A stretch of DNA of 64,000 bases, taken from the IMG/VR virus record IMGVR_UViG_3300007770_000001. One strand, 5' to 3'. A model generated the notes under the pieces. That model did not search any database, was not told the origin of the DNA, and was given only the letters and a program-made list of their open reading frames with translations. Below, piece by piece: positions 3,182 through 24,777 of this stretch (the stretch's first letter is position 1; the number at the start of each line of letters is the position of its first letter). The position numbers and the translations under genes are program-made. The DNA is from a virus. Its lineage: Duplodnaviria > Caudoviricetes.

Positions 3182-3502
3182 GTGGAAAGGAAGGCCCTAC
3201 AGGATCGGGATGCGCGCGTGGGTTCCCATGTGTTCACCGCTCTTCAAGAGATAGAGTCTGCCATCCGCATCTCTCGCGACCACACCCAAACCCGACAAGC
3301 GCGGAAGGCGCACCGGGATCTTCTTCATATCCGGGACGGCCTGAAGAGAATCTCCTCCGCATCCCCCAACTGGTCCGATCCGGACACTATTCCTGAAGAG
3401 GAATGGTCTCGGAGGGCTCGGGAGAAAAGAGAGCAACGACGGAAAGAGCTCATGGAGAAGAAGCTGAAGCAGGCGACCCAGGCGGAGGCCTCTGATGAGT
3501 AA
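3182..3502 (+). CDS. Hypothetical helical protein
   Basis: GTG at 3182 after GAGGG; stop overlaps the portal start. Confidence 0.55.
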   Translation: MERKALQDRDARVGSHVFTALQEIESAIRISRDHTQTRQARKAHRDLLHIRDGLKRISSASPNWSDPDTIPEEEWSRRAREKREQRRKELMEKKLKQATQAEASDE

Positions 3503-5195
3503 AGACAAACAGGAGGGAGTCCCTGTAGGGAAGGTGAGTAGCGGCGACGGGAAGAAGCGCGCCAAGACAGGGAAGCCTCGGAAGATCATCGTCGGGAGCA
3601 TGCGTTCTCGGTACGCAGCAGTCGGATCCATGGCCAACACGGTCCAGGGATACGGGGGCAACTTCTACAGTCCTGAGCTCTCCACGGACTTCCTCGAGCT
3701 TCCCCAGAGCCTCCACGAGAAGTGGGCCTATTACCGGTTCTTCTATGAGAATGAGCCGTTCGTAGGGCAGGCGCTCAATCTTCATGTTGAGCTCCCCATC
3801 TCCAAGATCCGGATTGGGATCCCCAAGGCCAAGAACCGAGAGATCGCTCTGGCGGCCACCCGGTTCTGCACCAAGTGGGCCCGTCGGGTTCGTCTCGTAG
3901 AGCGCCTCATGTCGATGGTCCACGAGAGGAATCTGATCGGAGAGGCGTTCGTCTGGTTCGAGGATGAGAACCCCGAGATGCCTCAGGAGGTTCGCCATGA
4001 AGCGCGGAGGACCCTGACTACAGAAGGGGAGGCTGTAGAGGAATGGGTCCTCCGTGAGGATGCCGACCAGCGCGCTTCCAAGTGGCTCCGGAAGAACTAC
4101 AAGGGATGGACGGACGTCCGGTGTCTCCCTCCGGAGCAGATCCGCTTCGAGTCCTTCAACTTCACAAGCGAGATGCTGTTCGAGGTCATCCCGGATTCGA
4201 AGACCAAGCGCATCGTGGATCGCGCAAAGCAGGGAGATCCCCAGGCCCAGCGGGTCGTCAAGACGATGTCCGCCGATGTGGTCCGTGCCTGTGTAGAGGG
4301 GCGCAATGTCCCCCTGAACACCGACCCTGATGCTGGCTCCTTCATCTACTATCTGGCCAACAAGCGGTCGGACTACCAGGCGCGCGGGACTTCCATTCTC
4401 CAGCGCTGTATCCGTGCTCTTGTCTACCGGGACAAGCTCCGCCAAGCCCAGACCAGCATCGCCTCTCGCCATATGACCCCCATCCGGATTGTCTGGGGGG
4501 AAGACATGAGCGAGGGGGATGTCGAAGATCTGCGCGAACAGGTCGACATGGCGCTGATGGATCCGGACTACTCCATCATCACCAACTTCCAGGTCAACTG
4601 GGAAGAGATGGGGGCGGACCAGCGTCTGCTGGATCTCAACGGAGAATACGACCTCACCGATCGGCAGCTGTACGCAGGACTCTCGGTTACCGAGGGTCTT
4701 CTCTCGGGGGAGTCCTCCTACTCTGGGGACCGGGCCAACCTCGAGGTCATCAACACTCGGTACATGTTGCTCCGAGAGCAACTCCAAGCCTTCGTTGAGG
4801 ACTTCGTGTTCCGGCCGATGTGTGCTCGGATGGGGTTCATCGAGAAGGACGAAGATGGCGAGGATGTGGTGGTAGTTCCCTCCCTGACCTTCACTCGTCT
4901 GGCTCTCCGCGACAACCGCGACACCTTCGATGCTCTGTACAACCTGTACACCAAGGGCAGCTTGGACGTCGAGACCATCCTTGAGCTCCTGAACCTTGAT
5001 CCTGTCCTGGTCCGCGAGCGGATCGAACGGGATCTCTGGACTGTCAACGATCCGACCTTCAACGAGGTCCTGCGGGGCATCTACGGAGATGCGGGTCGTG
5101 AGCTCGTTGGATCTACGAACATCCTTGAGGTCTTGGCCAAGGCCCTCAAGCTCGAGTACAACCCGCCCTCTGATGACGGCGACGGCCGGTTCTGA
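3495..5195 (+). CDS. Portal protein
   Basis: 566 aa, largely helical, downstream of terL in the head module. Size and synteny are typical; no diagnostic motif is certain. Confidence 0.72.
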   Translation: MSKDKQEGVPVGKVSSGDGKKRAKTGKPRKIIVGSMRSRYAAVGSMANTVQGYGGNFYSPELSTDFLELPQSLHEKWAYYRFFYENEPFVGQALNLHVELPISKIRIGIPKAKNREIALAATRFCTKWARRVRLVERLMSMVHERNLIGEAFVWFEDENPEMPQEVRHEARRTLTTEGEAVEEWVLREDADQRASKWLRKNYKGWTDVRCLPPEQIRFESFNFTSEMLFEVIPDSKTKRIVDRAKQGDPQAQRVVKTMSADVVRACVEGRNVPLNTDPDAGSFIYYLANKRSDYQARGTSILQRCIRALVYRDKLRQAQTSIASRHMTPIRIVWGEDMSEGDVEDLREQVDMALMDPDYSIITNFQVNWEEMGADQRLLDLNGEYDLTDRQLYAGLSVTEGLLSGESSYSGDRANLEVINTRYMLLREQLQAFVEDFVFRPMCARMGFIEKDEDGEDVVVVPSLTFTRLALRDNRDTFDALYNLYTKGSLDVETILELLNLDPVLVRERIERDLWTVNDPTFNEVLRGIYGDAGRELVGSTNILEVLAKALKLEYNPPSDDGDGRF

Positions 5196-10171: not shown

Positions 10172-10810
10172 ATGCGTCCTGACCCAAAGAAGGTTGCTGC
10201 TGCTTTCCTCGCGCAGAAGTCCGGTATGTCTCGGACGGCGGGTGAGGTTCGGTTCGTCAAGGATCGTGGGGGTGACAAGTCCGAGTGGGGTTGGAACACC
10301 CCCGGCCCGTCTGAGAGAGATATCTCGGACAACTTCGTGTTCAACGCGGAGAACCTGAAGCCGTTGGCTTTGGTGATGCGGTCGGTCCTGATGGGATTGG
10401 GCCACGCCACTTCGGCGCACACTCGGATGGTGAAGATCAAGAGCCGGAACGTTAGCCCTGATGGGGCTCTCGGAGGCAAGGGGTACATTCAGAAGATCCC
10501 GGACCTGCGGCGCCAGCTCATGAACTGTGTCGAGGTTCTCTCTGCGATTTCCGATACCCTGTACGATGAGATCAAGGCCCCTCACTGGGATCCCTCCGAG
10601 GACAAGATGACTCCACGGGACCGCGACGAGGTTCGTGAGATCGTAGAGGACGCTGAGGAGATCAAGGAAGATCCTGAGGCCTGGGCGGATGAGCAGGAAG
10701 AAGAGCTCGATGAGGAACACGACACCCTCGCTGTCCACAAGCAAGCAAGCCAGAAGGTGAGCTTGCACCGGGTGATCCGGAACTTCCAGAGGAGCACCGA
10801 TGTCGGATAG
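10172..10810 (+). CDS. Hypothetical protein with N-terminal PKKVAAAF motif (candidate head-internal protein)
   Basis: CAGGAG RBS, CTAT element 30 nt upstream; stop overlaps the next start. Confidence 0.7.
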   Translation: MRPDPKKVAAAFLAQKSGMSRTAGEVRFVKDRGGDKSEWGWNTPGPSERDISDNFVFNAENLKPLALVMRSVLMGLGHATSAHTRMVKIKSRNVSPDGALGGKGYIQKIPDLRRQLMNCVEVLSAISDTLYDEIKAPHWDPSEDKMTPRDRDEVREIVEDAEEIKEDPEAWADEQEEELDEEHDTLAVHKQASQKVSLHRVIRNFQRSTDVG

Positions 10811-13208
10811 CACGATCCACCAGCTGGGCAATGCGGAGCTCCCCGCTGACCTGTTCACGGAGACCCTGGCGAACGGCTTTGGGCTCGGTGAGTACCCTGA
10901 CATGCAATACGGAATGGGGTCTCAGTCAGCCGTTGTCCTGCAGGACGGCCCCACGACTGCACCTGCTGTTCCTGACGGTCTGGCGAAGGGGTCCGCAGAG
11001 GATCTCGATCTCCGTTCTCTGATCGCCGAGACCGTCCCCGATCTCGATTGGCTCGACGCCAGCCTCCTGGAGCAGGATCCCGCGCGCCTTCCGAAGAACC
11101 CAACGGACGTGATCCCGGAGCTCGTTGACGCTTGGAGCTCCGACGGCCCTTCTCTCACAGCACAGACTCGAGACCTTTCCCGCGTTCGGTACGAGGAATC
11201 TCTCAAGGAGGGCTCCGGGACTTCCCAGAAGGCTTCCGTCAAGCAGATGCGAGAAGTGGCTTCCAAGGCGATGCGTCGGTCTGTGATGGGTCACGATATC
11301 GCGACCATCATCCGCGAGGCTCAGGAGTGTATGGGGGAAGAGGCGGCCCGGTTGGAGCCTCTCCTCAAGATGGTCCTCGCTGAGCATGGCCTGGCGGGGA
11401 ATGTGTTCATTCGAGCTGCTGCCTATCCCAAGTACGGGTCGGGCCAGTGGGGAGCCCACCTCCGGAGATATGCACGGGACGCCCGGTATGTGGTGGTCTC
11501 TGAGCGGGATCTCAAGAACGCAACCTGGATCCAGAACGGTCGGTGCTCTCTCACCGGCAAGTTCGCCGTCACGAAGGTCCCCTGGGAAGAGGCAGTCACC
11601 CACTACAAGTCTCGGCTGGCTGGCCGCTCTCCTTCTCGCACTGGTCTGCGTTCTGCGTTCCTCCAGAGGGAGGGTCTCTCCAAGAAGGCCAACAGCTGGC
11701 TTCCACACCACACGGCTGCTGCTGATCGGGTCTCCACTGAGGAGGCGTGGAAGGCGTTCGCGTCGTACAAGCCCGAGGTTCCTCAGCTTCGGGATCCGAA
11801 GGCCGTGCGGCTGGCTTCGGACAAGCGGGCGGCAGAGGAGAAGATCAACTCCCTCGTCGCTCAGGGAGTTCTCCCTGAGGTGGACCGGGATCGTATCCTG
11901 GCCTCTGGCGCTTCTCCCTCTGACCAGTTGAAGGCGGCAGCTCAGATCGCTGCTCTCCCCAAGGTCTCTGCGTACCAGGGAGTGCAGAACAAGGCCAACG
12001 AGGTCAATCGAGATCTGTATCTGGCGCGGCTCGAGATGAGCCACCTGGCTGCTCAGGAGCGTGTCTCCCGCCTCCGTGTCGAGGCTTCGCGCCGCTCTCA
12101 GGCAGCCATTCAGGACCTGGTGGATCGAAAGATCCTCAAGGCCTCCGAAGCGAAGGCGATGCTGGAGTCCGGCAAGTCGGTCCACGCAATCCTCCGCGCA
12201 GCAGCCAAGATCTCCCTCATCCGACAGGGTGAGTTCAGCGGCCAGAACAACAACGCAGCTGAGGCGGGAGTCCAGAGGGTTGTCTCCGGAGCAGAGAAGA
12301 ACCAGGCTCGTATCCGCACTGCCCAGACCAACATCGACCGTCGTGTCCGGAGGGAAGCAGCGGAGAGTACCCTCGAGGCCCGCGCCGCCCAGGATCGCGT
12401 CACCCGGCTCAAGGCAGGGTATCGGGAGGTCCGCCGGGCGATCGAGGCTGGCGCCCGTGGTCAGGTCCTCAAGAACATCATCGCCAAGACGTTCCATGGG
12501 AACGATGCCGAGATTGGCCGTCGTATGCTCGCTGGCCTCCTGGAGCGCACAGGAGCCCTGAAGGAGCCCACCAAGGCCAACTATGAAGGGAAGTCCTTCA
12601 AGATCCATCAGGCAGAGGCTCGGAAGGCTCGGTTCTCTGGGACCGAAGCCCGGAAGGTCCTGTCTTGGCTCGGCCGGACCCTCTCTGAGGGCTTCGCAGG
12701 GAAGCCCTTGGATGAGCTCATCCAGCGTCGGTTCACTGCTCGGACACGGGAGGCTCTCAAGAGCGAGATCTTCGTAGCTCGGACCTCCCACGAGGGTGGT
12801 GCAGGGTTCGTCTATGTGGACGCCTCTGCGTATGCAACCCTCAAGGGGGTCAAGGGGTGCGAGACCGGGGCCCTCAAGCACCGGGCGAATCAGATCCCCT
12901 CCGTCCTGGAGATGAGCCGGTGCGCTTCTTGCTCCCTGGTCTCGACTCGGGAGAACGGCGAGCGGGTTTGCTCCCTGTACAACAAGGTCCTGCTCGCCGA
13001 CGCTCGGGGTCCCGAGATGGACCGCATCCGTTCGGCCAACGTCCAGGTAGCCAACATGAGCCGCGCGGAGCAGACCCAGTCTCTGTTCGCCGGTGTCTAC
13101 GATCCAGCGGAGTTCGATCTCCAGAACACCAATCTGGAGGGGATCTCTCCCGGGATGCCTGAGACGGACAAGTTGGCTGAGATCTTCTTCGAGACGCGAC
13201 TGCAGTGA
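10800..13208 (+). CDS. Large helical hypothetical protein (candidate head-internal protein)
   Basis: 802 aa, coupled to both neighbours; Cys pair C(A)SC near the C-terminus. Confidence 0.7.
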   Translation: MSDSTIHQLGNAELPADLFTETLANGFGLGEYPDMQYGMGSQSAVVLQDGPTTAPAVPDGLAKGSAEDLDLRSLIAETVPDLDWLDASLLEQDPARLPKNPTDVIPELVDAWSSDGPSLTAQTRDLSRVRYEESLKEGSGTSQKASVKQMREVASKAMRRSVMGHDIATIIREAQECMGEEAARLEPLLKMVLAEHGLAGNVFIRAAAYPKYGSGQWGAHLRRYARDARYVVVSERDLKNATWIQNGRCSLTGKFAVTKVPWEEAVTHYKSRLAGRSPSRTGLRSAFLQREGLSKKANSWLPHHTAAADRVSTEEAWKAFASYKPEVPQLRDPKAVRLASDKRAAEEKINSLVAQGVLPEVDRDRILASGASPSDQLKAAAQIAALPKVSAYQGVQNKANEVNRDLYLARLEMSHLAAQERVSRLRVEASRRSQAAIQDLVDRKILKASEAKAMLESGKSVHAILRAAAKISLIRQGEFSGQNNNAAEAGVQRVVSGAEKNQARIRTAQTNIDRRVRREAAESTLEARAAQDRVTRLKAGYREVRRAIEAGARGQVLKNIIAKTFHGNDAEIGRRMLAGLLERTGALKEPTKANYEGKSFKIHQAEARKARFSGTEARKVLSWLGRTLSEGFAGKPLDELIQRRFTARTREALKSEIFVARTSHEGGAGFVYVDASAYATLKGVKGCETGALKHRANQIPSVLEMSRCASCSLVSTRENGERVCSLYNKVLLADARGPEMDRIRSANVQVANMSRAEQTQSLFAGVYDPAEFDLQNTNLEGISPGMPETDKLAEIFFETRLQ

Positions 13209-16174
13209 AGCCGAACCCAGCCCGCGTGGCTGTGCGTTGGGCCGTATCCCAGCAGCAAGCAGCCCCGAAGCCCATGGCGCCCGTTGGGAAGCCAGGGGTT
13301 CATGTGGGTCTGTTCTTCCCCGTCCCCGAGGATATCGCTGATCAGTTCCCGGAGAAGGAGCAGGACAAGTCCAACCCCCACGTGACCTTCCTGTATGTGG
13401 GAGAGGTGGAAACCTCTCGGGAACAGGAGCTCGTAGAACTGGTCTCCGACTTCTTCCTGGAGCTGCCGGCTATCCGGGCCTCTCTGGGCCCTATGGACTA
13501 CTTCCTGACGCCAACCCAAAAGGTGGTGTTCAGCTCGGTCCGTTTCTCCCATGACATCTCGAGTATCCGAGACCAGATCCGGGAAGCTCTCCTGAAAGCG
13601 GGCTTCCGTGTCAAAGATGCCTCCCCTATCCGATGGCATCCCCACGTAACCATCGCGTATGTCAGCCCGGAGGAGAACCTCAAGCTGGCGCCGCCCAAGG
13701 GGTCCTGGGATATCGAGACTGTGCGGGTCTGGGGCTTCTCCAAGGAGCACACGATCCTGTTCGGAGGTGCGGGCCGCCGTCCTACCTTCAAGAGCATGTC
13801 CCATCGGGTCGCTGCCAAGTACAAGTCCAAGAAGGATGTCAAGGGTCCCGACGGCAAGACCCACACGATCTACGAGTACTCGGACCAGCACAACGCGAAC
13901 AAGGACAAGGACAAATCCAAGAGGGTCGAGAAGCTCCGCCAGAGCCTCTCGAAGCTCCGGAGCAAGTACCGTAAAGGGCTGTCAGCAGAGGACGCTCGAG
14001 AGCGTCTCACGGCCCTCGCCGTTGCTCTGGTAGACTGCACCTACGAGCGCGTCGGGAATGACGGCTCCGCCAAGGAAGGACACTTCGGTGTCACCGGCTG
14101 GCAGAAGAAGCATGTCACCATCTCTGGGAATACAGCCACCTTCAAGTACACCGGGAAGTCGGGGATCGACCACGAGAAAAAGGTCACCAACTCCAAGGTG
14201 GTCGGGGCTCTCAAGAAGGCACTCGAAGGGAAGAAGCCCGGGGACAAGATCCTTTGCGATGGCGATGAGTGTGTGATCTCAGCCACCCAGGTCAATCAGT
14301 ACCTGTCGGAGTTCGGAGTCACCGCCAAGGATATCCGAGGCCTCCACGCCAACGAGGAGATGAAGAAGAGTCTCTCGGCCATCCGCAAGAAGGGACCCAA
14401 GCTTCCCTCCGACAAGAAGGAGCGGGAGAAACTCCTCAAGGATGAGTTCAAGCAGGCCCTCGAGTCCGCAGCCGAGGCAGTCGGCCACACCACCTCCATT
14501 CTGCGCTCCAGCTATCTGGTTCCGGGTCTGGAGGACAAGTTCATGCAGGACGGAACGGTGATCAACAAGCTGAACAAGGCTGGCCGTACAAAGACGGCTG
14601 CCTTTGACATCCTGCGGCACTGCCCCCACTGTCTGGGGATTGTGTCTGACCTGGCCAAGTTCTGGGATACCTGTACGGACTGTGGCTACGAGGTCAATCT
14701 GGGAGGCTTCTATAATGGGCGTGGTGATGCTCCTCACGGAGGAAAGCCTGTCGAGAGGATGGCCCGCGAAGACGCGTGGCAGCCGATTCCTGAGACGGAT
14801 CCTCGCCTGATCAAGCAGGCCCTGGATACCTTCTCCCAGTACTCCCGAGGTCCAATGATGTGGATCGGGGAGGAAACACGCCTGGCCACACTTGAAGAGC
14901 TCGCCCAGTACCTGGAACGTGTCGGAGCTCCCATCCCTGCCGTTCCCCATACCAAGACTGCTGCGGGGAACCAAGAGGTCATCGAGGCTCCTCACAACTT
15001 CCATCGAGTCAAGGTAGAGCCCCCACGAGCCAAGCGGAAGGTGTACCCGTTCGAGGGCTACATCGACTTCCAGGGCATCCAGATCGATGTAGAGAACAAG
15101 AAGGGGTCCTCTCGCTCCGGGGCGGATCCCGACGGGAACAAGTGGTCTATCAAGATGCACGCCCACTACGGGGAGATCCGTGGGACCGAGGGCACCGACG
15201 GGGATAAGCTTGACGTCTACGTGGGGGAGAACCACGATTCCTCGGTGGTGGTCGTAGTTCACCAACAGGACCCCAGCACTGGCAAGTTCGACGAGGACAA
15301 GGTCCTGTTGGGATTCGACTCTCCTGAGGAGGCCATCGGTCTCTACAAGAAGCAGTACGACAAGCCAGGCTTCTTCAAGGAGGGCGAGTTCCTGACCATG
15401 CCCATTGGCCAGTTCTGGCGCTGGGTCAACGATCGGAAGAACAAGGGGAAGAAGGTGAAGGCTCGGTACTGGAGACCTCTCTCCGATGCTGTCGGGCTCA
15501 AGACTGCCAAGAAGGGCTCCTGGCAGGAGAGGTACTGGAAGACTGCCATTATCCACCTCTGGAACGCAACAGACGGAGAGGGTGATCTCCGGGGGAATCC
15601 CGGTCTTCAGTCGAGCCTGACTCTGTACGAGCGCGCGCTGATACAGGAGCTCTTGATTCATGAGCAGCCCATTCTCCGGACGGGCGAGCACTACCACGTC
15701 CGGGACCACCGACTGGATCCCGAGGCGGTTGGGGAGCTCATCGGCGCAGGATATCTCGAGGAACTGGAGGACGGTTCGGTTGTCGTTTCTCCGATGTACC
15801 ACGCCAAGGCACGCCTGTATGGTGGGGGTCTGACTCTGAAGGAGCAGATCATGGCCTACGAGCTCGGGTACGACCACACCAAGTCTGCTGCGCGTCACGG
15901 TCCTCCGACTCAGGTTGGTCTCTCCTCTGTTCTGAAGCGGAAAGGTCTGGAGCCGGTCGATATCTGGTTCGGACAGGTTCGTCCCCACCGCCGGCCGACG
16001 GTGACCAAGCTCGAGGCTCTGCGCACACGCGCCGGAGATATCGTCTACTTTGCCGGGATGGATGGCAAGGGCGAGCCTGTCGTTGGCCGCACTGAGCGGG
16101 AAGCAAAGGAGCTCGCCAACGAGATCGTTAAGCTCCGCCTTCGCCACCAAACCCCAACGATCCACAGCACCTGA
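13205..16174 (+). CDS. Polyvalent protein: 2H phosphoesterase + DNA topoisomerase IB catalytic core + phage polyvalent inorganic pyrophosphatase-like domain
   Basis: 2H motifs PHVTF and PHVTI. Topo IB pentad ERVGN (R), GKSG (K), KDIRG (R), GHT (H), RSSYL (Y). InPase-like IDVENKKGSSRSG...YGEIRGTEGTDGDKLDVYVG...FDEDKVLLGF. Confidence 0.82.
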   Translation: MKPNPARVAVRWAVSQQQAAPKPMAPVGKPGVHVGLFFPVPEDIADQFPEKEQDKSNPHVTFLYVGEVETSREQELVELVSDFFLELPAIRASLGPMDYFLTPTQKVVFSSVRFSHDISSIRDQIREALLKAGFRVKDASPIRWHPHVTIAYVSPEENLKLAPPKGSWDIETVRVWGFSKEHTILFGGAGRRPTFKSMSHRVAAKYKSKKDVKGPDGKTHTIYEYSDQHNANKDKDKSKRVEKLRQSLSKLRSKYRKGLSAEDARERLTALAVALVDCTYERVGNDGSAKEGHFGVTGWQKKHVTISGNTATFKYTGKSGIDHEKKVTNSKVVGALKKALEGKKPGDKILCDGDECVISATQVNQYLSEFGVTAKDIRGLHANEEMKKSLSAIRKKGPKLPSDKKEREKLLKDEFKQALESAAEAVGHTTSILRSSYLVPGLEDKFMQDGTVINKLNKAGRTKTAAFDILRHCPHCLGIVSDLAKFWDTCTDCGYEVNLGGFYNGRGDAPHGGKPVERMAREDAWQPIPETDPRLIKQALDTFSQYSRGPMMWIGEETRLATLEELAQYLERVGAPIPAVPHTKTAAGNQEVIEAPHNFHRVKVEPPRAKRKVYPFEGYIDFQGIQIDVENKKGSSRSGADPDGNKWSIKMHAHYGEIRGTEGTDGDKLDVYVGENHDSSVVVVVHQQDPSTGKFDEDKVLLGFDSPEEAIGLYKKQYDKPGFFKEGEFLTMPIGQFWRWVNDRKNKGKKVKARYWRPLSDAVGLKTAKKGSWQERYWKTAIIHLWNATDGEGDLRGNPGLQSSLTLYERALIQELLIHEQPILRTGEHYHVRDHRLDPEAVGELIGAGYLEELEDGSVVVSPMYHAKARLYGGGLTLKEQIMAYELGYDHTKSAARHGPPTQVGLSSVLKRKGLEPVDIWFGQVRPHRRPTVTKLEALRTRAGDIVYFAGMDGKGEPVVGRTEREAKELANEIVKLRLRHQTPTIHST

Positions 16175-18027
16175 TGATTGTCTCCCCCGAGCGTGTGGCC
16201 CGTCTGTTCTTGGCGACCAAGACACGTTCGGAGAAGGAAGAGGCTGAGGCGGAGCGGCTGATCAGGCCCTCTCCGAAGAAGAAGCCTCCTCGTCGGGATC
16301 TGGAACGAGGTCGGGTCAACGATAGCGAGGACGACCCGGACGAGAAGCAGGACAAGAAGGACCGGTCCCACAACTACAAGGACTCAAGCTTCGACCTGGT
16401 AGCTTGGTGGTTCAAGAACGCTCGGGACACCAGTACGGTCAGGATGCGCAAGGTGGATACCGGGCGCGTCGTCGACGTCTCTCCGGACACTGTCTCTGAG
16501 AACCCAGGCGCGTACGAGGAAGTCACTGGGGACGATGCAACAGATACGGACGACGCTGATCCTGATGCAACCGAGGACACCCCTTCCGACACTCCCAGTT
16601 CTGATCCAAAAGGGGATGCCCCTCCCAAGCCTGACCCCTCCTCTCTCCCAGGGCCTACGGACCTCCCGGACAAGGACGCGTACGAGAAGTTCCGCTCCGA
16701 TGCCATGGCTCGCTACACAGCCTTGGGGATAGCTGAAGACGAGGTTACTGAGATCTTGGACATGGTCTCGAACCAAGGGGACGCTGAGGAATCAGTGGTC
16801 CTGTTGGATGAGCTCGCGGATACGGCTGCTGCGGAAAAGGCGGACCGAGAGAAGGCCGAGAAGGCCGAGGCCGAAGCTCTCCAGAAGGAGCAGACCGAGG
16901 CTGAAGAGGCTCGGAAGAAGGAGGAGCGGGACAAGCTCACCAAGGATCTCACTCAGGGTCTGCCGAGGGACCAGGAGTCTGCTCTTGAGAGGTCCCTCGG
17001 GAAGCTCTCTCCCGAGCAGTTCCAGGCGTTCTCGGAAACTCTGCAGAACCGGGTGTCTGACCTCAACGCGAGTCGTCCGGACATCAAAGAGTTCATGGAG
17101 GACCTCTCCGCGCGGAAGAAGGATCTCCGGGAAAGCACTGACCCGGCCCGGTTGGGAGAAGCCCTCGCGGCCGTGACCTACTTCAACACGGTGGTAGACA
17201 ACCCTGCTGTGGATCTGGATAACCCTCTTCCGGAGAAGGGAGGGGACGAGCTGGAAGGGGATGCTCTGACTGAGGCCCGGAAGAAGTCGGTCGAGAGGTC
17301 CTCACGTGCAGTAGAGAAGTATCGTGCGATGTCCTCCGAAGATCGGAAACGTCACCTCAAGCGGCTGGACCAAGAGCTCCTGGATCTCCCAGACGGATCG
17401 CCCCGCCGAGTAGAGCTTGAGGCGATTGAGAAGGGGTTGGGAATCGCTGCTGTCCTCGAAGAGGGAGACTCGGTTCGAGGAGCCGGCTCTGCAGTAGCCG
17501 GAGTCATCCGTGCTGCCGATACAGCTGGGGATCTTGACAAGATCCTATCTCTCTCTGTGTTGGAGAGCACCGATGCCCTGGGTTCGGATGACCAGCATAT
17601 CATCCGTGGTGTCTACAACAACCTGGGCTCTATGGATTTCGTAGATGTGGTCGCCAAGGACCACCCCGCCCGTCCCCTCGCTGAACTCCTTGCGGACCCG
17701 GCGGGGAGCAAGAACATGTCCCGGGCGGACAGGGCGTTCATGAAAGAACTCCTGGTGGATGCCCTAGTCGCGGACACTGCCTTCCTGGATCCCCTCGTTT
17801 CAGGGGAGAGCGAAGGCCTCACGGTCAAGGAACACCGCAAGAAGTCTCTGAAGAAGCGGAAGAAGTTCACCCCATCGACCAAGATCCCAACGGACGTCAA
17901 GGGCGCTCGTGGTTGGTTCGAAGAGTTCCTCGAGAACCTCTCCGCACCGTTCCGAAAGAAGTCCTCCTCCCACATTCCTTGGGATTTCACCCCCTGGAAC
18001 CCCGAAACCATCACCTTCCAGACCTAA
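16174..18027 (+). CDS. Acidic helical hypothetical protein with N-terminal PERVARLF motif
   Basis: 617 aa, TGATG coupling to the polyvalent gene. Confidence 0.7.
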   Translation: MIVSPERVARLFLATKTRSEKEEAEAERLIRPSPKKKPPRRDLERGRVNDSEDDPDEKQDKKDRSHNYKDSSFDLVAWWFKNARDTSTVRMRKVDTGRVVDVSPDTVSENPGAYEEVTGDDATDTDDADPDATEDTPSDTPSSDPKGDAPPKPDPSSLPGPTDLPDKDAYEKFRSDAMARYTALGIAEDEVTEILDMVSNQGDAEESVVLLDELADTAAAEKADREKAEKAEAEALQKEQTEAEEARKKEERDKLTKDLTQGLPRDQESALERSLGKLSPEQFQAFSETLQNRVSDLNASRPDIKEFMEDLSARKKDLRESTDPARLGEALAAVTYFNTVVDNPAVDLDNPLPEKGGDELEGDALTEARKKSVERSSRAVEKYRAMSSEDRKRHLKRLDQELLDLPDGSPRRVELEAIEKGLGIAAVLEEGDSVRGAGSAVAGVIRAADTAGDLDKILSLSVLESTDALGSDDQHIIRGVYNNLGSMDFVDVVAKDHPARPLAELLADPAGSKNMSRADRAFMKELLVDALVADTAFLDPLVSGESEGLTVKEHRKKSLKKRKKFTPSTKIPTDVKGARGWFEEFLENLSAPFRKKSSSHIPWDFTPWNPETITFQT

Positions 18028-18126
18028 AACTACTCTGCTGTTCCCGATTCTTGCGGTACCAGTTTTATATGGCTTCCGCTAAAGGTGAGTCGGCTCAGCC
18101 GTCCCTATCTCTGTGGAGACTGTGAA

Positions 18127-19065
18127 ATGACCAACAAGCTGACCCGGCTCGGTGCTCGGAACCTGACTTCGGCGATGGACAACGTCGCCGATACGATCCA
18201 GACCCACTTCGCTCTGCTGGGCATCGACCCGAAGATCGCCGGGGACTATGCCCTGCGGACCGATCTTCTCTCCGATGTCATCGAGCGGCGTGCCTCTGAG
18301 AACTTCCCCAAGAACGCGGACATGGATCTCTCCGTCATCGGAGAGACCACCACCGCTTCCTCTGTCCCCGGCTACGCAGGGTTCACCGCTCAGATCCGTG
18401 AGCTGGAGGGCCTCGCGACCCAGGCTGCTGAGATCTCCGCCCAGGTGGAGGAGGCCGTCGGCCCTCTCCTGCGGGAAGGCTCGGTTCTGGACGCCGGCCA
18501 GAAGAAGATCCACAAGGCCATCGTCGACGGGTACAAGCAGCACCTGGGGCAGATCGGAGACATCATCATCGAGCGCAAGACAGCTCTGGTGGGCGCTCGT
18601 GCCCGCCTCAAGGTCACCCAGGTCCGCCGGACTCCCAACCAGGTTCAGGGGGAGCTCCTCACGGCCGTTACTGAGCGCTACGGCGCTGAGGTCGCTGACT
18701 TCATCGCCACCACCCAGTCGGCCCTCCGGGATGCCGAGAAGAACCTGCGGATCGCCTTCAAGGGCTTCGAGCTCGAGCAGCGTGCTCTCACCGCCTCCGG
18801 CAAGACGGCGGGCCTCGCCGATCTTCTGGCCCGGTTCCAGGAGACCCTGTCCAAGACCTGGCAGCGTATCGTTCAGGTGGTCCAGAACGCCGTCGGTCTG
18901 GTCTCCGGGGCGGCCAAGCGCGTCACCACGGCCCATGACGACTTCATGGAGGCCTTCTCCGCAGCACAGTCCAAGGCTGCCTCTGATGACGAGGATGCTG
19001 AGGACACCGACAAGGAAGCCTCCCAGACCGACAAGGTCGCGGGCCCCTTCAACCTCTTTGCGTAG
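18127..19065 (+). CDS. Coiled-coil hypothetical protein (candidate head core protein)
   Basis: ATG 18127 after GGAG, strong C-ending codon bias; shares DTDKEAS with the scaffold. Confidence 0.65.
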   Translation: MTNKLTRLGARNLTSAMDNVADTIQTHFALLGIDPKIAGDYALRTDLLSDVIERRASENFPKNADMDLSVIGETTTASSVPGYAGFTAQIRELEGLATQAAEISAQVEEAVGPLLREGSVLDAGQKKIHKAIVDGYKQHLGQIGDIIIERKTALVGARARLKVTQVRRTPNQVQGELLTAVTERYGAEVADFIATTQSALRDAEKNLRIAFKGFELEQRALTASGKTAGLADLLARFQETLSKTWQRIVQVVQNAVGLVSGAAKRVTTAHDDFMEAFSAAQSKAASDDEDAEDTDKEASQTDKVAGPFNLFA

Positions 19066-19079
19066 GTCGATCTGATCGG

Positions 19080-19559
19080 ATGACTCGCTCCGCTTCCAAC
19101 TTCGTCGACTTCCAGTCTCGGGCTCGTGAGTTCTCCGAAGGGGACCTCGCTGCCCCCTTCGGATATTCCGTGGACCAGGCAGGACGGGTCACCAATGTGT
19201 GGCCTGCCGTCGGGATGGTGGATGTGGAGTTCGCGACGGGGAACCGTCGTCTTCCGGCAGAGGATCTCCAGAAGTTCACTCCTGATGGAGATCCTGACCC
19301 CCCGAAGACCAACTCGGTCACCGGACCGAGTTCTACCAAGGTGGCACTCTACTGGGCTCAGCGGGATCGCAAGTATCGGATGTCTCGTCCTGAGATCATC
19401 GATGGTTGTCCCTGCTGCCCTCGCTGCCCGGACAAGCCCAAGCTCAGCCGCGCCATCTACAAAAGGTTGGACGGCGCCAGCGAGCGGCTCCTCGGTTGCA
19501 AGTCCTGTCTCTTCCTGATCAAAAGTTCTGATATCGTCAATATGGGGGGTGGGGGATGA
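19080..19559 (+). CDS. Hypothetical protein with C-terminal Zn ribbon (CPRC...CKSC); 3' end appears recoded
   Basis: Two CxxC pairs; the last codons use AAA/TCT/GAT/AAT, unlike the rest of the gene. Confidence 0.7.
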   Translation: MTRSASNFVDFQSRAREFSEGDLAAPFGYSVDQAGRVTNVWPAVGMVDVEFATGNRRLPAEDLQKFTPDGDPDPPKTNSVTGPSSTKVALYWAQRDRKYRMSRPEIIDGCPCCPRCPDKPKLSRAIYKRLDGASERLLGCKSCLFLIKSSDIVNMGGGG

Positions 19560-20390: not shown

Positions 20391-21848
20391 ATGGCTCACT
20401 CCAAGAAAGCATATGCGATGCTCACCCATCCCCGGATCACCGGGCGTGGTTGGGGCAAAATGCGTCGGAAGGCGACGTCCGGGGCTTCCTCGGCCAACCT
20501 GTCGGATCAGGCTCGTCTGATCCTCGGCGGGCCTCTGGATCCCGACAAGTACCTCTTCTCGCACTGCACCATCGTGGCGTCGGTGGATATCGATCCCGTC
20601 CCGGGTGTCCGTATGGGCACTGTCAAGGTAGGGAACTCGACCATTGACCGTCGCTATGGCGACTACTACATCAGGCCCACCAGTTCCCAGTATGTGAACA
20701 ACAACGGGGACTCTTGGTCTCGCCCAGTGCTGCTGGCCAGCTATCCGACCTTCGTCGGGGGCCACAACTTCCTCGAGCATGTCCAGGTTGCCTCCAAGTC
20801 CAAGGGCCGGATCATCGATGCGGTCGCTCGGGATGTTGGGGACTCGGTCTACATCGACATCCTGGTCGCGACCAATCGGAAGCATGCTTCCCTGATCTCG
20901 GACATCAAGTCCGGACGTCTCAACACCCTCTCGATGGGCTGTACCACCGACTTCACGATCTGCACCAAGTGCGGACACGTGGCGGTGGACGAGACCGACC
21001 TCTGCGACCACGTCAAGGTTGCCAAGCTCGACACCTTCCTCGACGAGCGGAACGAGCGTCGGATCATCGCCGAGCTCTGCGGCCACATCTCTCACAACGA
21101 GACGGGGGGTGTCAACTTCATCGAAGCCAGCTGGGTTGGGATCCCGGCTTTCACTGGCGCGGTGATGCGAAACATCCTGCAGATCGCCAACCTCGATGAG
21201 CGCGAGTCCGAGATTCGCCGGATCCTCGCCAGTCAAGGTCCCTCGTGGTCGGAGGCTGCCATGATGAAGGCAGCCAAGTTCGACCCCCAAAGGTTCCTGG
21301 TTGGACAAGGGGACGAGGACAACGAGGATCAAGAGCCAGAGCCAACCCCGGAGCCCGAGACCAAGGACACTCTCCAGAAGCTCGAAGATGACCTGGTTGA
21401 CCGAGTCAAGGACCGCGTGCAGGACCGCCTCCGCTCCGAGATGCGTTCCGATGAGGGTGACAAGACCCTTGGGGACTCCGACTGGCCCAATGACACTCTG
21501 AACAGGGAAGCCCGGACCCGGGTAGCCTCCAACACCCGCCGTCGCTACAAGATCGCGGTGGAAACGGCTCTCCGGCATGCGACCTCTCAGATCGCTCTCG
21601 TCGACTCGGTCGCTCGGATCAACATCGCCCACGATATCCGGATCCCCGTCTCCATCTATCGCGCCGCTCTCGAGGCTGGCTCCTCTTCTCGCTACGCTGG
21701 AACTCAGCAGTACGTGAATCGGATGCAGCACCTCCTGGGTCGCCGCATCAGTCCCGCCGAATTCCGGGTTGTTGTCCGGGTCGGCTCCCTGCTCTCCCAG
21801 TGGGAGCAATTCAACAACCCGCAGTCATCCTCCCCGAGGAGTTCCTAA
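20391..21848 (+). CDS. Prohead maturation protease
   Basis: NFLEH (His), IDILVA (Asp), LSMGC...CTKCGH (Ser plus Zn knuckle), FIEASWV; directly upstream of scaffold and capsid. Confidence 0.78.
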   Translation: MAHSKKAYAMLTHPRITGRGWGKMRRKATSGASSANLSDQARLILGGPLDPDKYLFSHCTIVASVDIDPVPGVRMGTVKVGNSTIDRRYGDYYIRPTSSQYVNNNGDSWSRPVLLASYPTFVGGHNFLEHVQVASKSKGRIIDAVARDVGDSVYIDILVATNRKHASLISDIKSGRLNTLSMGCTTDFTICTKCGHVAVDETDLCDHVKVAKLDTFLDERNERRIIAELCGHISHNETGGVNFIEASWVGIPAFTGAVMRNILQIANLDERESEIRRILASQGPSWSEAAMMKAAKFDPQRFLVGQGDEDNEDQEPEPTPEPETKDTLQKLEDDLVDRVKDRVQDRLRSEMRSDEGDKTLGDSDWPNDTLNREARTRVASNTRRRYKIAVETALRHATSQIALVDSVARINIAHDIRIPVSIYRAALEAGSSSRYAGTQQYVNRMQHLLGRRISPAEFRVVVRVGSLLSQWEQFNNPQSSSPRSS

Positions 21849-23020
21849 TGGCACGTCAGCGCCTCTCATGGATCGAGGAAGCTCGTCGAGCTTCCGCCCA
21901 CCCCGCAACCCCCGACGAGGGTCCGGCCTCTCCCGCAGGCAACGGTGAGGACCCCACCGCCGACGCCTACGAGAACGGCGACACCTCCTCGTGGGCCTCT
22001 GACCCGCACCCGCACCCCGGCCCCTACCCGGACAGCGCCCACCCCGCCACGCCCGACGAGGGCTCGGACCACCCGGCCGGCAAGTCCGCCTCCGACGAGA
22101 TCTCTCCCGAGACGAACCGTCGCGCCTCCCAGTGCGTCCGCATCGCGACCGCCATGCTCGGCGAGCCCGACAGCCCCGCCAAGGTCGCCGCCATCGAGGC
22201 GCAGGCCATCGAGCTGATGCACCTCCCCGACGCTTCCATCACCGCCAGCCTCAAGCGGCTCGGTCTGGACGGCGACGGTGAGGACGACACCGACAAGGAA
22301 GCCTCTTCCAAGATCTCCAAGAACACCGACCGGATCGCCCGGCTCGAGCGCGTTCTGATCCGCCTCGCCGACGACGACCTGGACGAGGAGGCCGCCACCA
22401 AGAAGGCTTCGGCTGAGCTGGAGACCCGCGTGGCGCGGCTCGAGCGCATCCTCGTCAAGCTGGCTGAGGAAGACGAGGATGACGACGGCGACCGGATCGC
22501 CCGGCTCGAGCGCGTTCTGATCCGCCTCGCCGAGGAGGAGGAGGAAGAGGACCCCGCCCCGAAGGCTGCCGCCACGGACAAGAAGGCCGACGACCTGCTC
22601 CTCGAGGAGATGCTCCGCGAAGAGGGGATGCTGGACAAGAAGGCCGACGACCTGCTCCTCGAGGAGATGCTCCGCGAAGAGGGGATGCTGGACGAGCCCT
22701 GCGGCATGGGTGAGCCCTCCATGGACGAGCCCTCCGGCGACACCGAGCTCGAGATCGATCTCGCTGAGGAGGATCCCATGACCATCCTCGCCGACGACGA
22801 CCTGGACGAGGAGGCCGCCACCGTGCTCGCCTCCCTGTACAGCGAGACCCCCGGCGCGAACCGCGAGGCCGCCACCGAGCCCGAGCGCCGGCCGCAGCCC
22901 AAGAAGGCGAGCACCGGTGCCTCCAGCCTCGGCAACGTCCGGACGGCGTCCAACGACTCCGACGTGGCTCAGCTCGAGAACCTGTGGAAGTCGGCTCCCG
23001 ACGTCTCCGCGCTCATCTGA
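21848..23020 (+). CDS. Capsid scaffolding protein
   Basis: TAATG coupling at 21846-21850; very acidic with coiled-coil repeats; amphipathic C-terminal tail DVAQLENLWKSAPDVSALI; lies between protease and capsid genes. Confidence 0.75.
   Translation: MARQRLSWIEEARRASAHPATPDEGPASPAGNGEDPTADAYENGDTSSWASDPHPHPGPYPDSAHPATPDEGSDHPAGKSASDEISPETNRRASQCVRIATAMLGEPDSPAKVAAIEAQAIELMHLPDASITASLKRLGLDGDGEDDTDKEASSKISKNTDRIARLERVLIRLADDDLDEEAATKKASAELETRVARLERILVKLAEEDEDDDGDRIARLERVLIRLAEEEEEEDPAPKAAATDKKADDLLLEEMLREEGMLDKKADDLLLEEMLREEGMLDEPCGMGEPSMDEPSGDTELEIDLAEEDPMTILADDDLDEEAATVLASLYSETPGANREAATEPERRPQPKKASTGASSLGNVRTASNDSDVAQLENLWKSAPDVSALI
22328..22533 (+). repeat. 44-bp direct repeat (DRIARLERVLIRLA) at 22328-22371 and 22490-22533
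   Basis: Identical nucleotide copies; a diverged third unit (TRVARLERILVKLA) lies between them. Confidence 0.85.
22576..22693 (+). repeat. 57-bp tandem duplication (DKKADDLLLEEMLREEGML x2)
   Basis: Identical units starting at 22576 and 22633. Confidence 0.9.
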
Positions 23021-23904: not shown

Positions 23905-24777
23905 ATGCCCGCAACCAACGCAGTCAAGGCTCGCCTCATCAGCGAGTTCATCGGCACCCAGGCTGGCCGTCACAAGCTCGCCGCGTCGATGACCCAGCCC
24001 CTCCGGCTCCGCCGGGACTACATGGCCGTCGGCCGGAAGACCTTCCTCGTGGAAGAGCTCCCGGATGGCGCGCTGCCCATCTACGACAAGGATCCGGACG
24101 TCACCGCGTACCTGGTCGGTGAGGAAGGCGAGAACATCGTCGCCGTCACCAAGCCCCGGCGCGTGTCCTTCCCGCTGTTCGAGATCGCCTCGAACCCGGA
24201 GATCCCGCTGACGCAGATCAAGGAGCGCCGCTTCGACCTCATCGAGCGCGCCCAGGACCTGGCCCGTGCCCAGATCCAGGCCGCCGAGGACGAGCGCGTC
24301 TTCGCGATCATGGACTCGATCGCCACCAACGGCTTCGACTCCATCGCCGGTGGTGAGAACCCCGACATCCCCGTCGTCGCCCCGATCTCCGGCGCTGTCC
24401 TCGCGGACGCCTTCGCCGCGGTCGAGCAGCACGACCTCCGGGTGGCCCGGGTGTTCATGAACGCCGTCGACTACGCGGACATCCGCAAGTTCGGCCGGGA
24501 CATCCTCGACGTCGAGACCCAGCGCGACCTCATCCAGACCGGCCTCATGGGTCGCCTCTGGGGTGCCAGCGTCATCGTCAGCCGCCTCGTGCCGGCCGGA
24601 TTCGTCTACATCTGCTGCGAGCCCGAGAACTTCGGTCGGATTCCGGTCCGTACCGAGCTCACGGTCCTCAGCGCCGACGACCCGCGCGCCCGCACCATTG
24701 GCTTCAGCGTTTTCGAAAACTTGGGCATCGGGGCCTTCAACCCCAAGGGCCTCTGCCGCCTGACGATCGCACGGTAG
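23905..24777 (+). CDS. Major capsid protein (HK97 fold)
   Basis: 290 aa, GAGGAGG RBS, strongest codon bias, follows protease and scaffold; HK97-like QIQAAEDERVF and ARVFMNAVDYADI segments. Confidence 0.85.
   Translation: MPATNAVKARLISEFIGTQAGRHKLAASMTQPLRLRRDYMAVGRKTFLVEELPDGALPIYDKDPDVTAYLVGEEGENIVAVTKPRRVSFPLFEIASNPEIPLTQIKERRFDLIERAQDLARAQIQAAEDERVFAIMDSIATNGFDSIAGGENPDIPVVAPISGAVLADAFAAVEQHDLRVARVFMNAVDYADIRKFGRDILDVETQRDLIQTGLMGRLWGASVIVSRLVPAGFVYICCEPENFGRIPVRTELTVLSADDPRARTIGFSVFENLGIGAFNPKGLCRLTIAR

What the first reader, a model, noticed from the sequence alone, without database searches (positions are those of the whole stretch)
10172..16212. Position-locked N-terminal motif MxxxPx[KR]VAxx[FW] on unrelated proteins: candidate capsid-targeting signal
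Seen: MRPDPKKVAAAFL (10172), MKPNPARVAVRWA (13205) and MIVSPERVARLFL (16174) all have P5, K/R7, V8, A9 and an aromatic residue at 12, yet are otherwise unrelated. The motif recurs internally at domain starts: MSHRVAAKY (13796-13822) just before the topoisomerase domain, and PKRVAIRF (60932-60955) right after a KTA site in gene 59876. Known: T4 internal proteins share a short N-terminal capsid-targeting sequence removed by the prohead protease. Inference: this is an analogous but different zip-code that loads cargo enzymes into the head for ejection. It could be a tool for packaging foreign proteins.
Basis: partly seen in the sequence, partly recalled or inferred. Interest (0 to 1): 0.8.

Follow-up and report, generated by a model that had tools for sequence, protein, structure and literature searches.

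The report
Portable peptide tag on huge-phage cargo
Unrelated head-module proteins of this uncultured huge phage, a distant relative of Bacillus phage G, share a short helical tag (Arg-Val-Ala-x-Arg-aromatic) next to cut sites of the head-maturation protease, most likely an address label for loading enzymes into the capsid, though no experiment shows this.

Summary
Three of about 55 window proteins start M-x3-P-x-[KR]-V-A-x2-[FW] (P = 7.6e-13). A profile built only from metagenomic homologues of one of them finds the other two and an internal copy in gene 59876.

The motif is clade-wide. Its core, [RK]-V-A-x-[RK]-[FWY], occurs 17 times against 0.5 expected in the closest large relative (288 kb). 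The reversed pattern is not enriched.

It is not strictly N-terminal. It sits 6-8 residues after Met, 1-9 residues after a [KR]-x-A cut site inside multi-enzyme polyproteins, or at the extreme C-terminus.

The conserved 212-aa protein has a tag at both ends. Each tag is separated from the core by a near-invariant K-T-A site.

The [KR]-x-A sites are concentrated in the scaffold and in the protease itself. The protease has a herpesvirus-assemblin/T4 gp21 fold.

Best reading (about 0.5): a portable docking helix that recruits cargo into the prohead, coupled to protease release. Cargo includes topoisomerase IB, 2H phosphoesterase, pyrophosphatase and RNA-repair enzymes. This works like the T4 capsid-targeting sequence but differs in sequence and placement. 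The receptor is unknown, and removal of the tag is supported only for the 212-aa family.

This scan has already noted the same RVAxR-aromatic tag on other huge-phage DNA. I found no paper describing it.

The parts
10172..10810 (+). 212-aa conserved protein with a tag at each end
   Evidence: Layout: N-tag, RTA cut site, core, acidic region, KQA cut site, C-tag. More than 500 metagenomic homologues at 60-80% identity. The family consensus has a tag and a K-T-A site at both ends. The AF2 model is helical, with the tags as helices 5-17 and 196-210.
10184..10207 (+). N-terminal tag PKKVAAAF (residues 5-12)
   Evidence: conserved as M-x-(R)PDP-x-RVA-x-RY in homologues
10232..10240 (+). RTA, candidate protease cut site directly before the conserved core (G24-EVRF)
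   Evidence: T22 is at least 90% conserved; A23 and G24 are invariant in 60 homologues. [KR]-x-A precedes the core in 115 of 117 homologues.
10739..10786 (+). C-terminal KQA cut site (10739-10747) followed by a degenerate C-tag RVIRNF (10769-10786)
   Evidence: K190 and A192 are nearly invariant. Many homologues end G-K-T-A-x(1-10)-RV-x-x-RY-x(5-7)-stop.
13205..16174 (+). 989-aa polyvalent cargo protein: 2H phosphoesterase, topoisomerase IB, Zn ribbon, InPase
   Evidence: Pfam PF13563, PF01028, PF18823; PHROG matches to minor head, DarB-like and virion proteins through the InPase domain
13217..13240 (+). N-terminal tag PARVAVRW (residues 5-12)
   Evidence: 24.4 bits with a profile built only from the 212-aa family
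13805..13822 (+). Internal tag RVAAKY at the start of the topoisomerase IB module
   Evidence: The same tag precedes the Topo IB domain by about 30 residues in L004, L011, L012, L019, L022 and L115. It is the N-terminus of stand-alone Topo IB proteins in L036 and L037.
16174..18027 (+). 617-aa acidic protein of unknown function carrying tags
   Evidence: No family match. Homologous segments occur inside polyproteins of relatives.
16186..16209 (+). N-terminal tag PERVARLF (residues 5-12)
16372..16413 (+). NYKDSS followed by LVAWWF: degenerate copy of the conserved junction 'NYKDA|S-x-x-RVAxRF' seen in relatives
19338..19355 (+). Weak internal tag KVALYW at the start of the Zn-ribbon half of the 159-aa protein 19080-19559
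   Evidence: Homologues have a canonical RVA-x-AF followed by KK-x-LYW at this place.
60902..60955 (+). KTA cut site (60902-60910), then tag PKRVAIRF (60932-60955) at the start of an extra C-terminal module of the SWIM protein 59876-61735
   Evidence: 23.1 bits. The LR745208.1 homologue ends just after the SWIM finger. The G005 homologue carries tags at residue 78 and at its C-terminus.
20391..21848 (+). Head-maturation protease, assemblin/T4 gp21 fold, with its own [KR]-x-A sites
   Evidence: phrog_18299. 34.8% identity to phage G gp19 over 112 aa, E 7e-19. The AF2 model matches VZV protease at Z 9.4, PRV pUL26N at Z 9.2 and T4 gp21 at Z 8.8. Conserved K-x-A at residues 5-7, R-x-A-S near residue 28 and A-K-A-A-S after the catalytic domain.
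21800..23020 (+). Acidic scaffold protein studded with [KR]-x-A-[S/D] sites; no canonical tag
   Evidence: 14 sites against 2.4 expected, the highest in the window. A universal C-terminal tail LSKLWESAPDVS-x-x-F lies about 20 aa after a [KR]-x-A site. No canonical tag in 29 homologues except one.
23905..24777 (+). Major capsid protein (HK97 fold, phage G gp27-like)
   Evidence: phrog_2522; 38.7% identity to phage G gp27; 582 relatives in IMG/VR
3495..5195 (+). Portal protein
   Evidence: phrog_16240; similar to phage G gp14, E 4e-54

Best explanation
The motif is a portable docking peptide. Its extended consensus is [PA]-S-[APS]-x-R-V-A-x-R-[YFW]-[LAV] followed by basic residues, predicted to form a short amphipathic helix. 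The phage attaches it to the free end of proteins, or of protein modules, that are to be enclosed in the prohead.

It works together with a second code, [KR]-x-A followed by S, A or G. That is the inferred cut site of the phage's assemblin-fold head-maturation protease.
- In multi-enzyme polyproteins the protease would cut 1-9 residues upstream of each tag, so every released module starts with its own tag.
- In the conserved 212-aa protein the protease would cut between each terminal tag and the core, freeing the core.

Shown here:
- the tag exists, is conserved and is portable;
- it lies close to true or cleavage-generated termini;
- it is associated with [KR]-x-A sites;
- those sites are concentrated in the scaffold and the protease;
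- the protease has the assemblin fold;
- the tagged proteins are of the packaged-effector type.

Inferred only: the tag binds a prohead component, which could be the capsid protein, the scaffold or another conserved part; the tagged proteins are in the virion; they are ejected with the DNA.
For: 1. Statistics in the window. Three of 55 N-termini carry the pattern (P = 7.6e-13). A profile built from the 212-aa family alone gives 3 hits of at least 12 bits in other window proteins, against 0.135 in shuffles and 0 in reversed sequences.

2. Clade-wide enrichment of [RK]VA.[RK][FWY]:
- 26 against 0.9 expected in 37 loci (z 27.6);
- 24 against 1.1 in 80 further loci;
- 17 against 0.5 in the 288-kb relative G005.
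The reversed pattern gives 0 against about 1 in each set.

3. Placement. In G005, 9 of 24 tags have a Met 6-8 residues upstream. In the loci, N-terminal tags have their Arg at residues 6-11, and 17 tags lie 1-9 residues after the Ala of a [KR]-x-A-[SAGTD] site. Twelve of 27 internal tags have such a site within 14 residues upstream, against 7.9% at random positions.

4. The 212-aa family has a tag, then K-T-A, at both ends, and the Ala of the cut site is invariant.

5. The third tag position varies (A, V, M, L, T), unlike the invariant Ala of the cut site. The tag is modelled as a helix. It therefore looks like a binding helix, not a cut site.

6. [KR].A[SAGTD] is most enriched in the scaffold (14 against 2.4 expected), the 326-aa head protein, the protease and the 212-aa protein.

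7. The protease fold matches herpesvirus assemblins and T4 gp21 at Z 8.8-9.4. Herpesvirus assemblins cut at Ala|Ser (my knowledge).

8. Tagged proteins carry InPase, Topo IB, 2H, PolyA_pol/CCA, HAD_SAK_1, GNAT and SWIM domains. InPase-bearing polyvalent phage proteins are proposed to be packaged and injected (PMC5512222).

9. Precedent: the T4 capsid-targeting sequence is a 10-residue N-terminal leader, and T4 Alt has propeptides at both ends (PMC9026906).
Against: - No virion proteomics exists for any tag-bearing phage.
- The cultured relatives, phage G and Tunturi_5, have the [KR]-x-A sites but no tag in their head regions. The tag is therefore not needed for cargo loading in the wider lineage.
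- The scaffold and protease, which must also enter the prohead, lack the canonical tag.
- In a polyprotein one tag should be enough for targeting, so the internal tags need another explanation: relics of gene fusion, or retention of each module after cutting.
- The 989-aa and 617-aa proteins show no cut site after the tag, so 'removed by the protease' is not general.
- No receptor has been identified.
Confidence: 0.5

Rival explanations
1. The tag is a substrate-recruitment element (exosite ligand) for the head-maturation protease. The protease binds the helix and cuts the nearest [KR]-x-A site on either side. In this reading the tag marks where to cut, not what to package.
For: Tags and [KR]-x-A sites are tightly coupled: 12 of 27 internal tags against 7.9% background, with 1-9 residues between site and tag. 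The K-T-A sites of the 212-aa family lie next to both of its tags.
Against: - True N-terminal tags on the 989-aa and 617-aa proteins have no [KR]-x-A site nearby.
- The scaffold has 14 sites and no tag, so cutting does not need the tag.
- The site lies upstream of the tag in polyproteins but downstream of the N-tag in the 212-aa family. That is awkward for a fixed exosite geometry.
Confidence: 0.2
2. The tag acts after maturation, on the mature modules inside the filled head. It might bind the packaged DNA or the portal/neck to hold each module in place, or order its exit during ejection.
For: - In polyproteins the predicted cut leaves the tag at the new N-terminus of each module.
- The tag and the residues after it are basic: R, R/K, then K/R-rich positions +7 to +9.
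- Cargo genes usually lie next to the portal gene.
Against: The most conserved tagged protein, the 212-aa family, would lose both tags at maturation. There is no evidence for DNA or portal binding.
Confidence: 0.12
3. The tag has nothing to do with the capsid. It could be a sorting or chaperone-binding signal used in the infected cell, for example recruitment to a phage compartment, a secretion route or a degradation tag.
For: In the 288-kb relative some tagged genes lie far from the head module, at 117, 165, 222, 255, 266 and 279 kb. Most of them have no known function.
Against: - The tag is coupled to [KR]-x-A sites, which are concentrated in the scaffold and head protease.
- Tagged genes are concentrated between the portal and protease genes.
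- Tagged proteins have the domain content of packaged effectors.
- Virion genes of huge phages are commonly scattered (my knowledge).
Confidence: 0.1
4. The resemblance is chance, or a remnant of shared ancestry of the three N-termini, with no function of its own.
For: The motif is short and was picked after the fact.
Against: P = 7.6e-13 in the window. Enrichment is 20- to 30-fold in three independent data sets, with flat reversed controls. The motif is conserved across more than 100 homologues while the flanking linkers vary in length and sequence. It occurs on proteins with unrelated domains.
Confidence: 0.02

Closest known systems
Capsid targeting sequence (CTS) of phage T4 internal proteins IPI-III and Alt, processed by prohead protease gp21 (Mullaney & Black 1996, as reviewed in PMC9026906)
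   Same: A tag of about 10 residues is shared by otherwise unrelated proteins. It is placed at the N-terminus and coupled to the cut site of a prohead protease of the assemblin/gp21 fold. Alt, like the 212-aa protein here, has propeptides at both ends. The cargo includes enzymes delivered with the DNA.
   Different: - No sequence similarity: the T4 leader is MKTYQEFIAE ending in L/I-x-E, whereas here it is RVAxR-aromatic with [KR]-x-A cut sites.
- The T4 CTS ends in its cut site and is always removed. Here the tag and the cut site are separate elements, and the tag is often predicted to stay on the module.
- The tag also occurs at C-termini and at internal module starts.
- Function is shown by experiment for T4 and not here.
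Herpesvirus assemblin with scaffold maturation (M) and release (R) sites (pUL26/pUL26.5)
   Same: The protease has the assemblin fold (Z 9.2-9.4) and cuts after Ala before Ser. The scaffold has a conserved C-terminal tail about 20 residues after a cut site, like the M-site. The protease has a conserved A-K-A-A-S site just after its catalytic domain, like the R-site.
   Different: Herpesviruses are not known to use a portable tag to load unrelated enzymes. P3 is Lys/Arg here. All sites here are predictions.
Polyvalent proteins of phages and conjugative elements (Iyer, Burroughs, Anand, de Souza, Aravind 2017; PMC5512222)
   Same: The 989-aa protein and its relatives are multi-enzyme proteins with the InPase domain, encoded in the head module, and are predicted to be packaged and injected.
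   Different: In the passages I searched, that paper proposes autoproteolysis by the proteins' own peptidase domains. Searches for 'cleav', 'processed' and 'linker' turned up no shared address tag and no head-protease sites between modules.
Encapsulin cargo-loading peptides, and the shared C-terminal capsid-binding helix of the staphylococcal phage 80alpha scaffold and SaPI1 CpmB (from my own knowledge)
   Same: A short terminal peptide, shared by unrelated proteins, docks them to the inside of an HK97-fold shell.
   Different: The sequences differ. Binding to the capsid protein is not shown here.
Propeptides of ejection and inner-body proteins of giant phages SPN3US and phiKZ, cut by a gp21-like protease (PMC10052503, PMC7411985)
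   Same: In a huge phage, many packaged proteins are trimmed by one prohead protease.
   Different: The cut motif there ends in Glu (my knowledge), and I know of no defined shared targeting consensus for those phages. The lineage is different.

Membership tests
T4-type capsid targeting sequence | Short leader shared by otherwise unrelated proteins at their N-termini | tested here: met
   Three window proteins with no other similarity; many more in relatives
T4-type capsid targeting sequence | Leader ends in the prohead-protease cut motif and is removed at maturation | tested here: inconclusive
   Sequence evidence for removal exists only in the 212-aa family (115 of 117 homologues). No [KR]-x-A follows the tag in the 989-aa and 617-aa proteins. 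In polyproteins the site is upstream.
T4-type capsid targeting sequence | Sequence resembles MKTYQEFIAE with an L/I-x-E cut site | tested here: not met
   Consensus here is [PA]-S-x-x-R-V-A-x-R-[YFW]; cut sites are [KR]-x-A
T4-type capsid targeting sequence | Necessary and sufficient to package a foreign protein | not testable with these tools
   Needs a reporter-fusion experiment
Assemblin/gp21-fold prohead protease system | Protease with the herpesvirus assemblin fold encoded next to scaffold and capsid genes | tested here: met
   AF2 model residues 50-265: VZV protease Z 9.4, PRV pUL26N Z 9.2, T4 gp21 Z 8.8. The top 25 rows are all herpesvirus proteases or gp21. Gene order is protease, scaffold, 218-aa, capsid protein.
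Assemblin/gp21-fold prohead protease system | Cut-site motif enriched in the scaffold and in the protease itself | tested here: met
   Scaffold 14 against 2.4 expected; protease 5 against 1.8. Conserved sites in 22 protease homologues and before the scaffold C-tail. Actual cleavage is not shown.
Polyvalent proteins (Iyer et al. 2017) | Several effector-type enzyme domains in one polypeptide, including the signature InPase domain, in a phage head-gene context | tested here: met
   PF13563, PF01028 and PF18823 in 13205-16174; it lies between the portal and protease genes; relatives
Encapsulin-type cargo-loading peptide | Terminal peptide binds the inner face of the HK97-fold shell protein | not testable with these tools
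   Needs binding or structural data on procapsids

The most novel reading that the evidence does not exclude
RVAxR-aromatic is a transferable capsid-loading signal of a large, globally distributed clade of uncultured huge phages; the capsid protein alone has 582 relatives in IMG/VR. Together with the [KR]-x-A cut code it would allow the packaged and injected protein set to be read from sequence alone. In these phages that set would be largely an RNA-repair and DNA-topology toolkit: CCA-adding/poly(A) polymerase, HAD phosphatase, 2H phosphoesterase, topoisomerase IB and pyrophosphatase. Such enzymes would be delivered with the genome, perhaps to undo host tRNA-cutting defences before any phage gene is expressed. 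The tag could also be used to load foreign proteins into very large capsids.
Probability: 0.4. Interest if true: 0.8.

Novelty: new variant of a known kind. Interest (0 to 1): 0.65.

Why it matters
Huge phages are almost all uncultured, so what they carry inside the capsid is unknown. A conserved address tag and a cut-site code would allow virion cargo to be predicted from metagenomic sequence. They would also show that the T4 idea of a capsid-targeting leader arose in a different form in a lineage that uses herpesvirus-like maturation. The tag is also a candidate short peptide for loading chosen proteins into very large capsids. The predicted cargo, RNA-repair and DNA-topology enzymes, suggests a testable counter-defence strategy that acts at the moment of injection.

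Tried and rejected
- Complex prediction with the capsid protein, the 212-aa core (residues 24-195) and a 42-residue tag alignment gave no verdict. It is not used as evidence either way.
- Fold searches with the 212-aa model against PDB and viral models gave nothing below E 0.5. Its function remains unknown.
- The window's own genome is not held, so a whole-proteome scan of this phage was not possible. I used the 288-kb relative G005 and the 485-kb record LR745208.1 instead. In LR745208.1 enrichment is weaker: 5 against 0.7 expected.
- A strict DNA pattern including the Pro found almost nothing in four more distant relatives. The Pro at position 5 is therefore a local habit, not part of the core.
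- A first N-terminus-versus-body test on loci around the portal was only weakly positive (7 against 3.5 expected). Most copies are internal, and my longest-ORF start calls misplace some N-termini.
- I considered that RVA is itself a [KR]-x-A cut site and rejected it. The third position is not strictly Ala (M, V, L, T occur), whereas the Ala of the K-T-A site is invariant.
- I considered that the tag mimics the scaffold helices RIARLERVL. Those repeats are present in only about half of the scaffold homologues, so I did not pursue this.
- Phage G and Tunturi_5 head regions have no tags, so no cultured model with the tag was found.
- Literature searches found no description of the tag.
- Sequence searches of the protease against PDB and Pfam found nothing. 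Only the PHROG match, homology to phage G gp19 and the fold comparison place it.
Full report
**What the window is**

The window is part of an uncultured huge phage with 60% G+C; the exact 617-aa protein lies on a 338,860-bp scaffold.

Its head module reads, in order:
- large terminase 697-2640
- portal 3495-5195
- 212-aa protein 10172
- 802-aa protein 10800
- 989-aa protein 13205
- 617-aa protein 16174
- 326-aa protein 18085
- 159-aa protein 19080
- a GIY-YIG endonuclease
- head-maturation protease 20391-21848
- acidic scaffold 21800-23020
- 218-aa protein
- major capsid protein 23905-24777

The capsid protein, portal and protease are homologous to gp27, gp14 and gp19 of Bacillus phage G: 38.7% identity, E 4e-54 and E 7e-19 respectively. 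The closest public record is the 485-kb uncultured phage LR745208.1, with 81.5% capsid-protein identity. IMG/VR holds 582 capsid-protein relatives.

**The observation**

- P.[KR]VA..[FWY] occurs four times in all six frames. All four are in genuine + strand genes and three are at residue 5 of the ORF.
- Three such N-termini among 55 genes have P = 7.6e-13.
- The proteins are otherwise unrelated and the codons differ.
- As an independent test I built a position matrix only from the N-termini of metagenomic homologues of the 212-aa protein. It scores the 989-aa N-terminus at 24.4 bits, the internal copy in gene 59876 at 23.1 and the 617-aa N-terminus at 12.7. Shuffled proteomes give 0.135 hits of at least 12 bits, and reversed sequences give none.

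**The motif across the clade**

The core [RK]-V-A-x-[RK]-[FWY] is strongly enriched in three independent data sets.

| Data set | Observed | Expected |
|---|---|---|
| 37 loci around portal or 212-aa homologues | 26 | 0.9 (z 27.6) |
| 80 loci around capsid-protein homologues | 24 | 1.1 |
| Closest large relative G005 (288 kb, 88% capsid-protein identity) | 17 | 0.5 |

The reversed pattern is never enriched.

From 80 non-redundant copies outside the 212-aa family, the extended consensus is [PA]-S-[APS]-x-R-V-A-x-R-[YFW]-[LAV] followed by basic residues.

The wider lineage does not share it. Phage G and the cultured Tunturi_5 have no tag in their head regions, and LR745208.1 has only a weak excess.

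**Where the tag sits**

'Position-locked at the N-terminus' is only part of the picture. The tag takes three placements.
- **N-terminal.** In G005, 9 of 24 tags have a Met 6-8 residues upstream, typically M-x-x-P-S-P-x-RVA. N-terminal tags in the loci have their Arg at residues 6-11.
- **After a cut site.** Most other copies lie inside polyproteins of 1,000-3,000 residues, in the linkers between enzyme domains. Seventeen lie 1-9 residues after the Ala of a [KR]-x-A-[SAGTD] site. Twelve of 27 internal tags have such a site within 14 residues upstream, against 7.9% of random positions.
- **C-terminal.** Some copies are at the extreme C-terminus.

The topoisomerase IB module illustrates portability. 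The same tag lies about 30 residues before the Pfam domain whether the module is internal (window, L004, L011, L012, L019, L022, L115) or a separate gene whose product starts with the tag (L036, L037).

The 212-aa family is the clearest case. Its consensus is N-tag, variable linker, K-T-A, conserved core, acidic region, K-T-A, then x(1-10)-RV-x-x-RY-x(5-7)-stop. [KR]-x-A directly precedes the core in 115 of 117 homologues.

**The cut-site code and the protease**

[KR].A[SAGTD] is most enriched in four window proteins:
- scaffold: 14 against 2.4 expected
- 326-aa head protein: 7 against 2.1
- the protease itself: 5 against 1.8
- 212-aa protein: 3 against 0.7

All scaffold homologues end in a conserved tail (LSKLWESAPDVS-x-x-F) about 20 residues after such a site. 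All protease homologues keep K-x-A at residues 5-7, R-x-A-S near residue 28 and A-K-A-A-S right after the catalytic domain.

The modelled catalytic domain matches herpesvirus assemblins (VZV Z 9.4, PRV Z 9.2) and T4 gp21 (Z 8.8). The top 25 rows are all such proteases. This is the layout of herpesvirus maturation and release sites. Cleavage itself is inferred, not shown.

**The tag is not itself a cut site**

R-V-A fits [KR]-x-A, so I checked this possibility. The third position of the tag varies (A, V, M, L, T), while the Ala of the K-T-A site is invariant. AF2 models both tags of the 212-aa protein as helices. The tag therefore looks like an amphipathic binding helix.

**What carries the tag**
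- 2H phosphoesterase, topoisomerase IB and InPase in the window
- PolyA_pol/CCA-adding enzyme, HAD_SAK_1, GNAT and SWIM proteins
- many proteins of unknown function in relatives

InPase-bearing polyvalent phage proteins have been proposed to be packaged and injected (PMC5512222). The scaffold and protease do not carry the canonical tag.

**Interpretation**

The best-supported model is a terminal docking helix that recruits cargo into the prohead, working with protease sites that separate modules or free the core. It works like the T4 capsid-targeting sequence (PMC9026906). T4 Alt even shares the two-ended propeptide layout.

It is not a member of that family. The sequences differ, the tag and cut site are separate elements, the tag is often predicted to be retained, and it also occurs at C-termini and internal junctions.

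I give this model 0.5. The main rival (0.2) is a protease-recruitment element. It explains the coupling to cut sites. It does not explain the tag-free scaffold with its 14 sites, or the N-terminal tags that have no site nearby. A post-maturation role in retention, DNA or portal binding, or ejection order gets 0.12. A role unrelated to the capsid gets 0.1.

The receptor is unknown. No virion proteomics exists for any tagged phage.

**Prior notes and literature**

Earlier AI notes of this scan describe the same RVAxR-aromatic tag and the [KR]-x-A-S code on other huge-phage DNA. I re-derived both independently here. Literature searches found no paper describing the tag.

Noticed in passing
window 10241-10738 (core of the 212-aa protein): The core is one of the most conserved proteins of the clade, with 53 invariant residues in 60 homologues. 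This includes a segment GEVRFIKDR...W...GP..R that AF2 leaves disordered, and a loop SPDG-LGGKGY. It always sits next to the 802-aa gene. There is no fold or family match, and its function is unknown.
   Followed up: partly
window 22960-23017 and scaffold homologues in L053-L131: Every scaffold homologue ends in LSKLWESAPDVS-x-x-F about 20 residues after a [KR]-x-A site. It looks like a capsid-binding tail released by a herpesvirus M-site-like cut.
   Followed up: partly
window 18085-19065: The 326-aa head protein is second in [KR]-x-A site enrichment and ends KVA|GPFNLFA. Two paralogues in LR745208.1 end KKA|SELFGLFSDK or similarly. This may be a second type of terminal docking peptide with its own cut site.
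   Followed up: no
window 20391-21848: The protease has a well-folded helical C-terminal domain (residues 327-475, pLDDT about 90), separated from the catalytic domain by a conserved A-K-A-A-S site and an acidic disordered linker. This is analogous to the herpesvirus protease-scaffold fusion.
   Followed up: partly
G005 (L165-L176) and L034, L037, L080: Tagged enzymes in relatives form an RNA-repair-like set: HAD_SAK_1 phosphatase, CCA-adding/poly(A) polymerase and 2H phosphoesterase. This hints at injected counter-measures to tRNA-cutting defences.
   Followed up: partly
window 59876-61735 compared with LR745208.1 385542-387104: The SWIM-finger protein has gained an extra 260-residue C-terminal module in this phage, joined through KTA plus a tag. 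The LR745208.1 homologue stops just after the SWIM finger.
   Followed up: partly
window 24436-24456: The capsid protein contains RVARVF, which matches the tag pattern. It is invariant in all capsid-protein homologues and lies inside the fold, so I treated it as part of the fold and excluded it from the counts.
   Followed up: partly
L023, L024, L026 (homologues of the 617-aa protein): The tag-bearing start of the 617-aa homologue lies in frame within a longer open reading frame. In these phages it may be fused to the upstream polyprotein.
   Followed up: no
window 19556-20389: A GIY-YIG homing-endonuclease gene sits between the 159-aa head gene and the protease gene.
   Followed up: no
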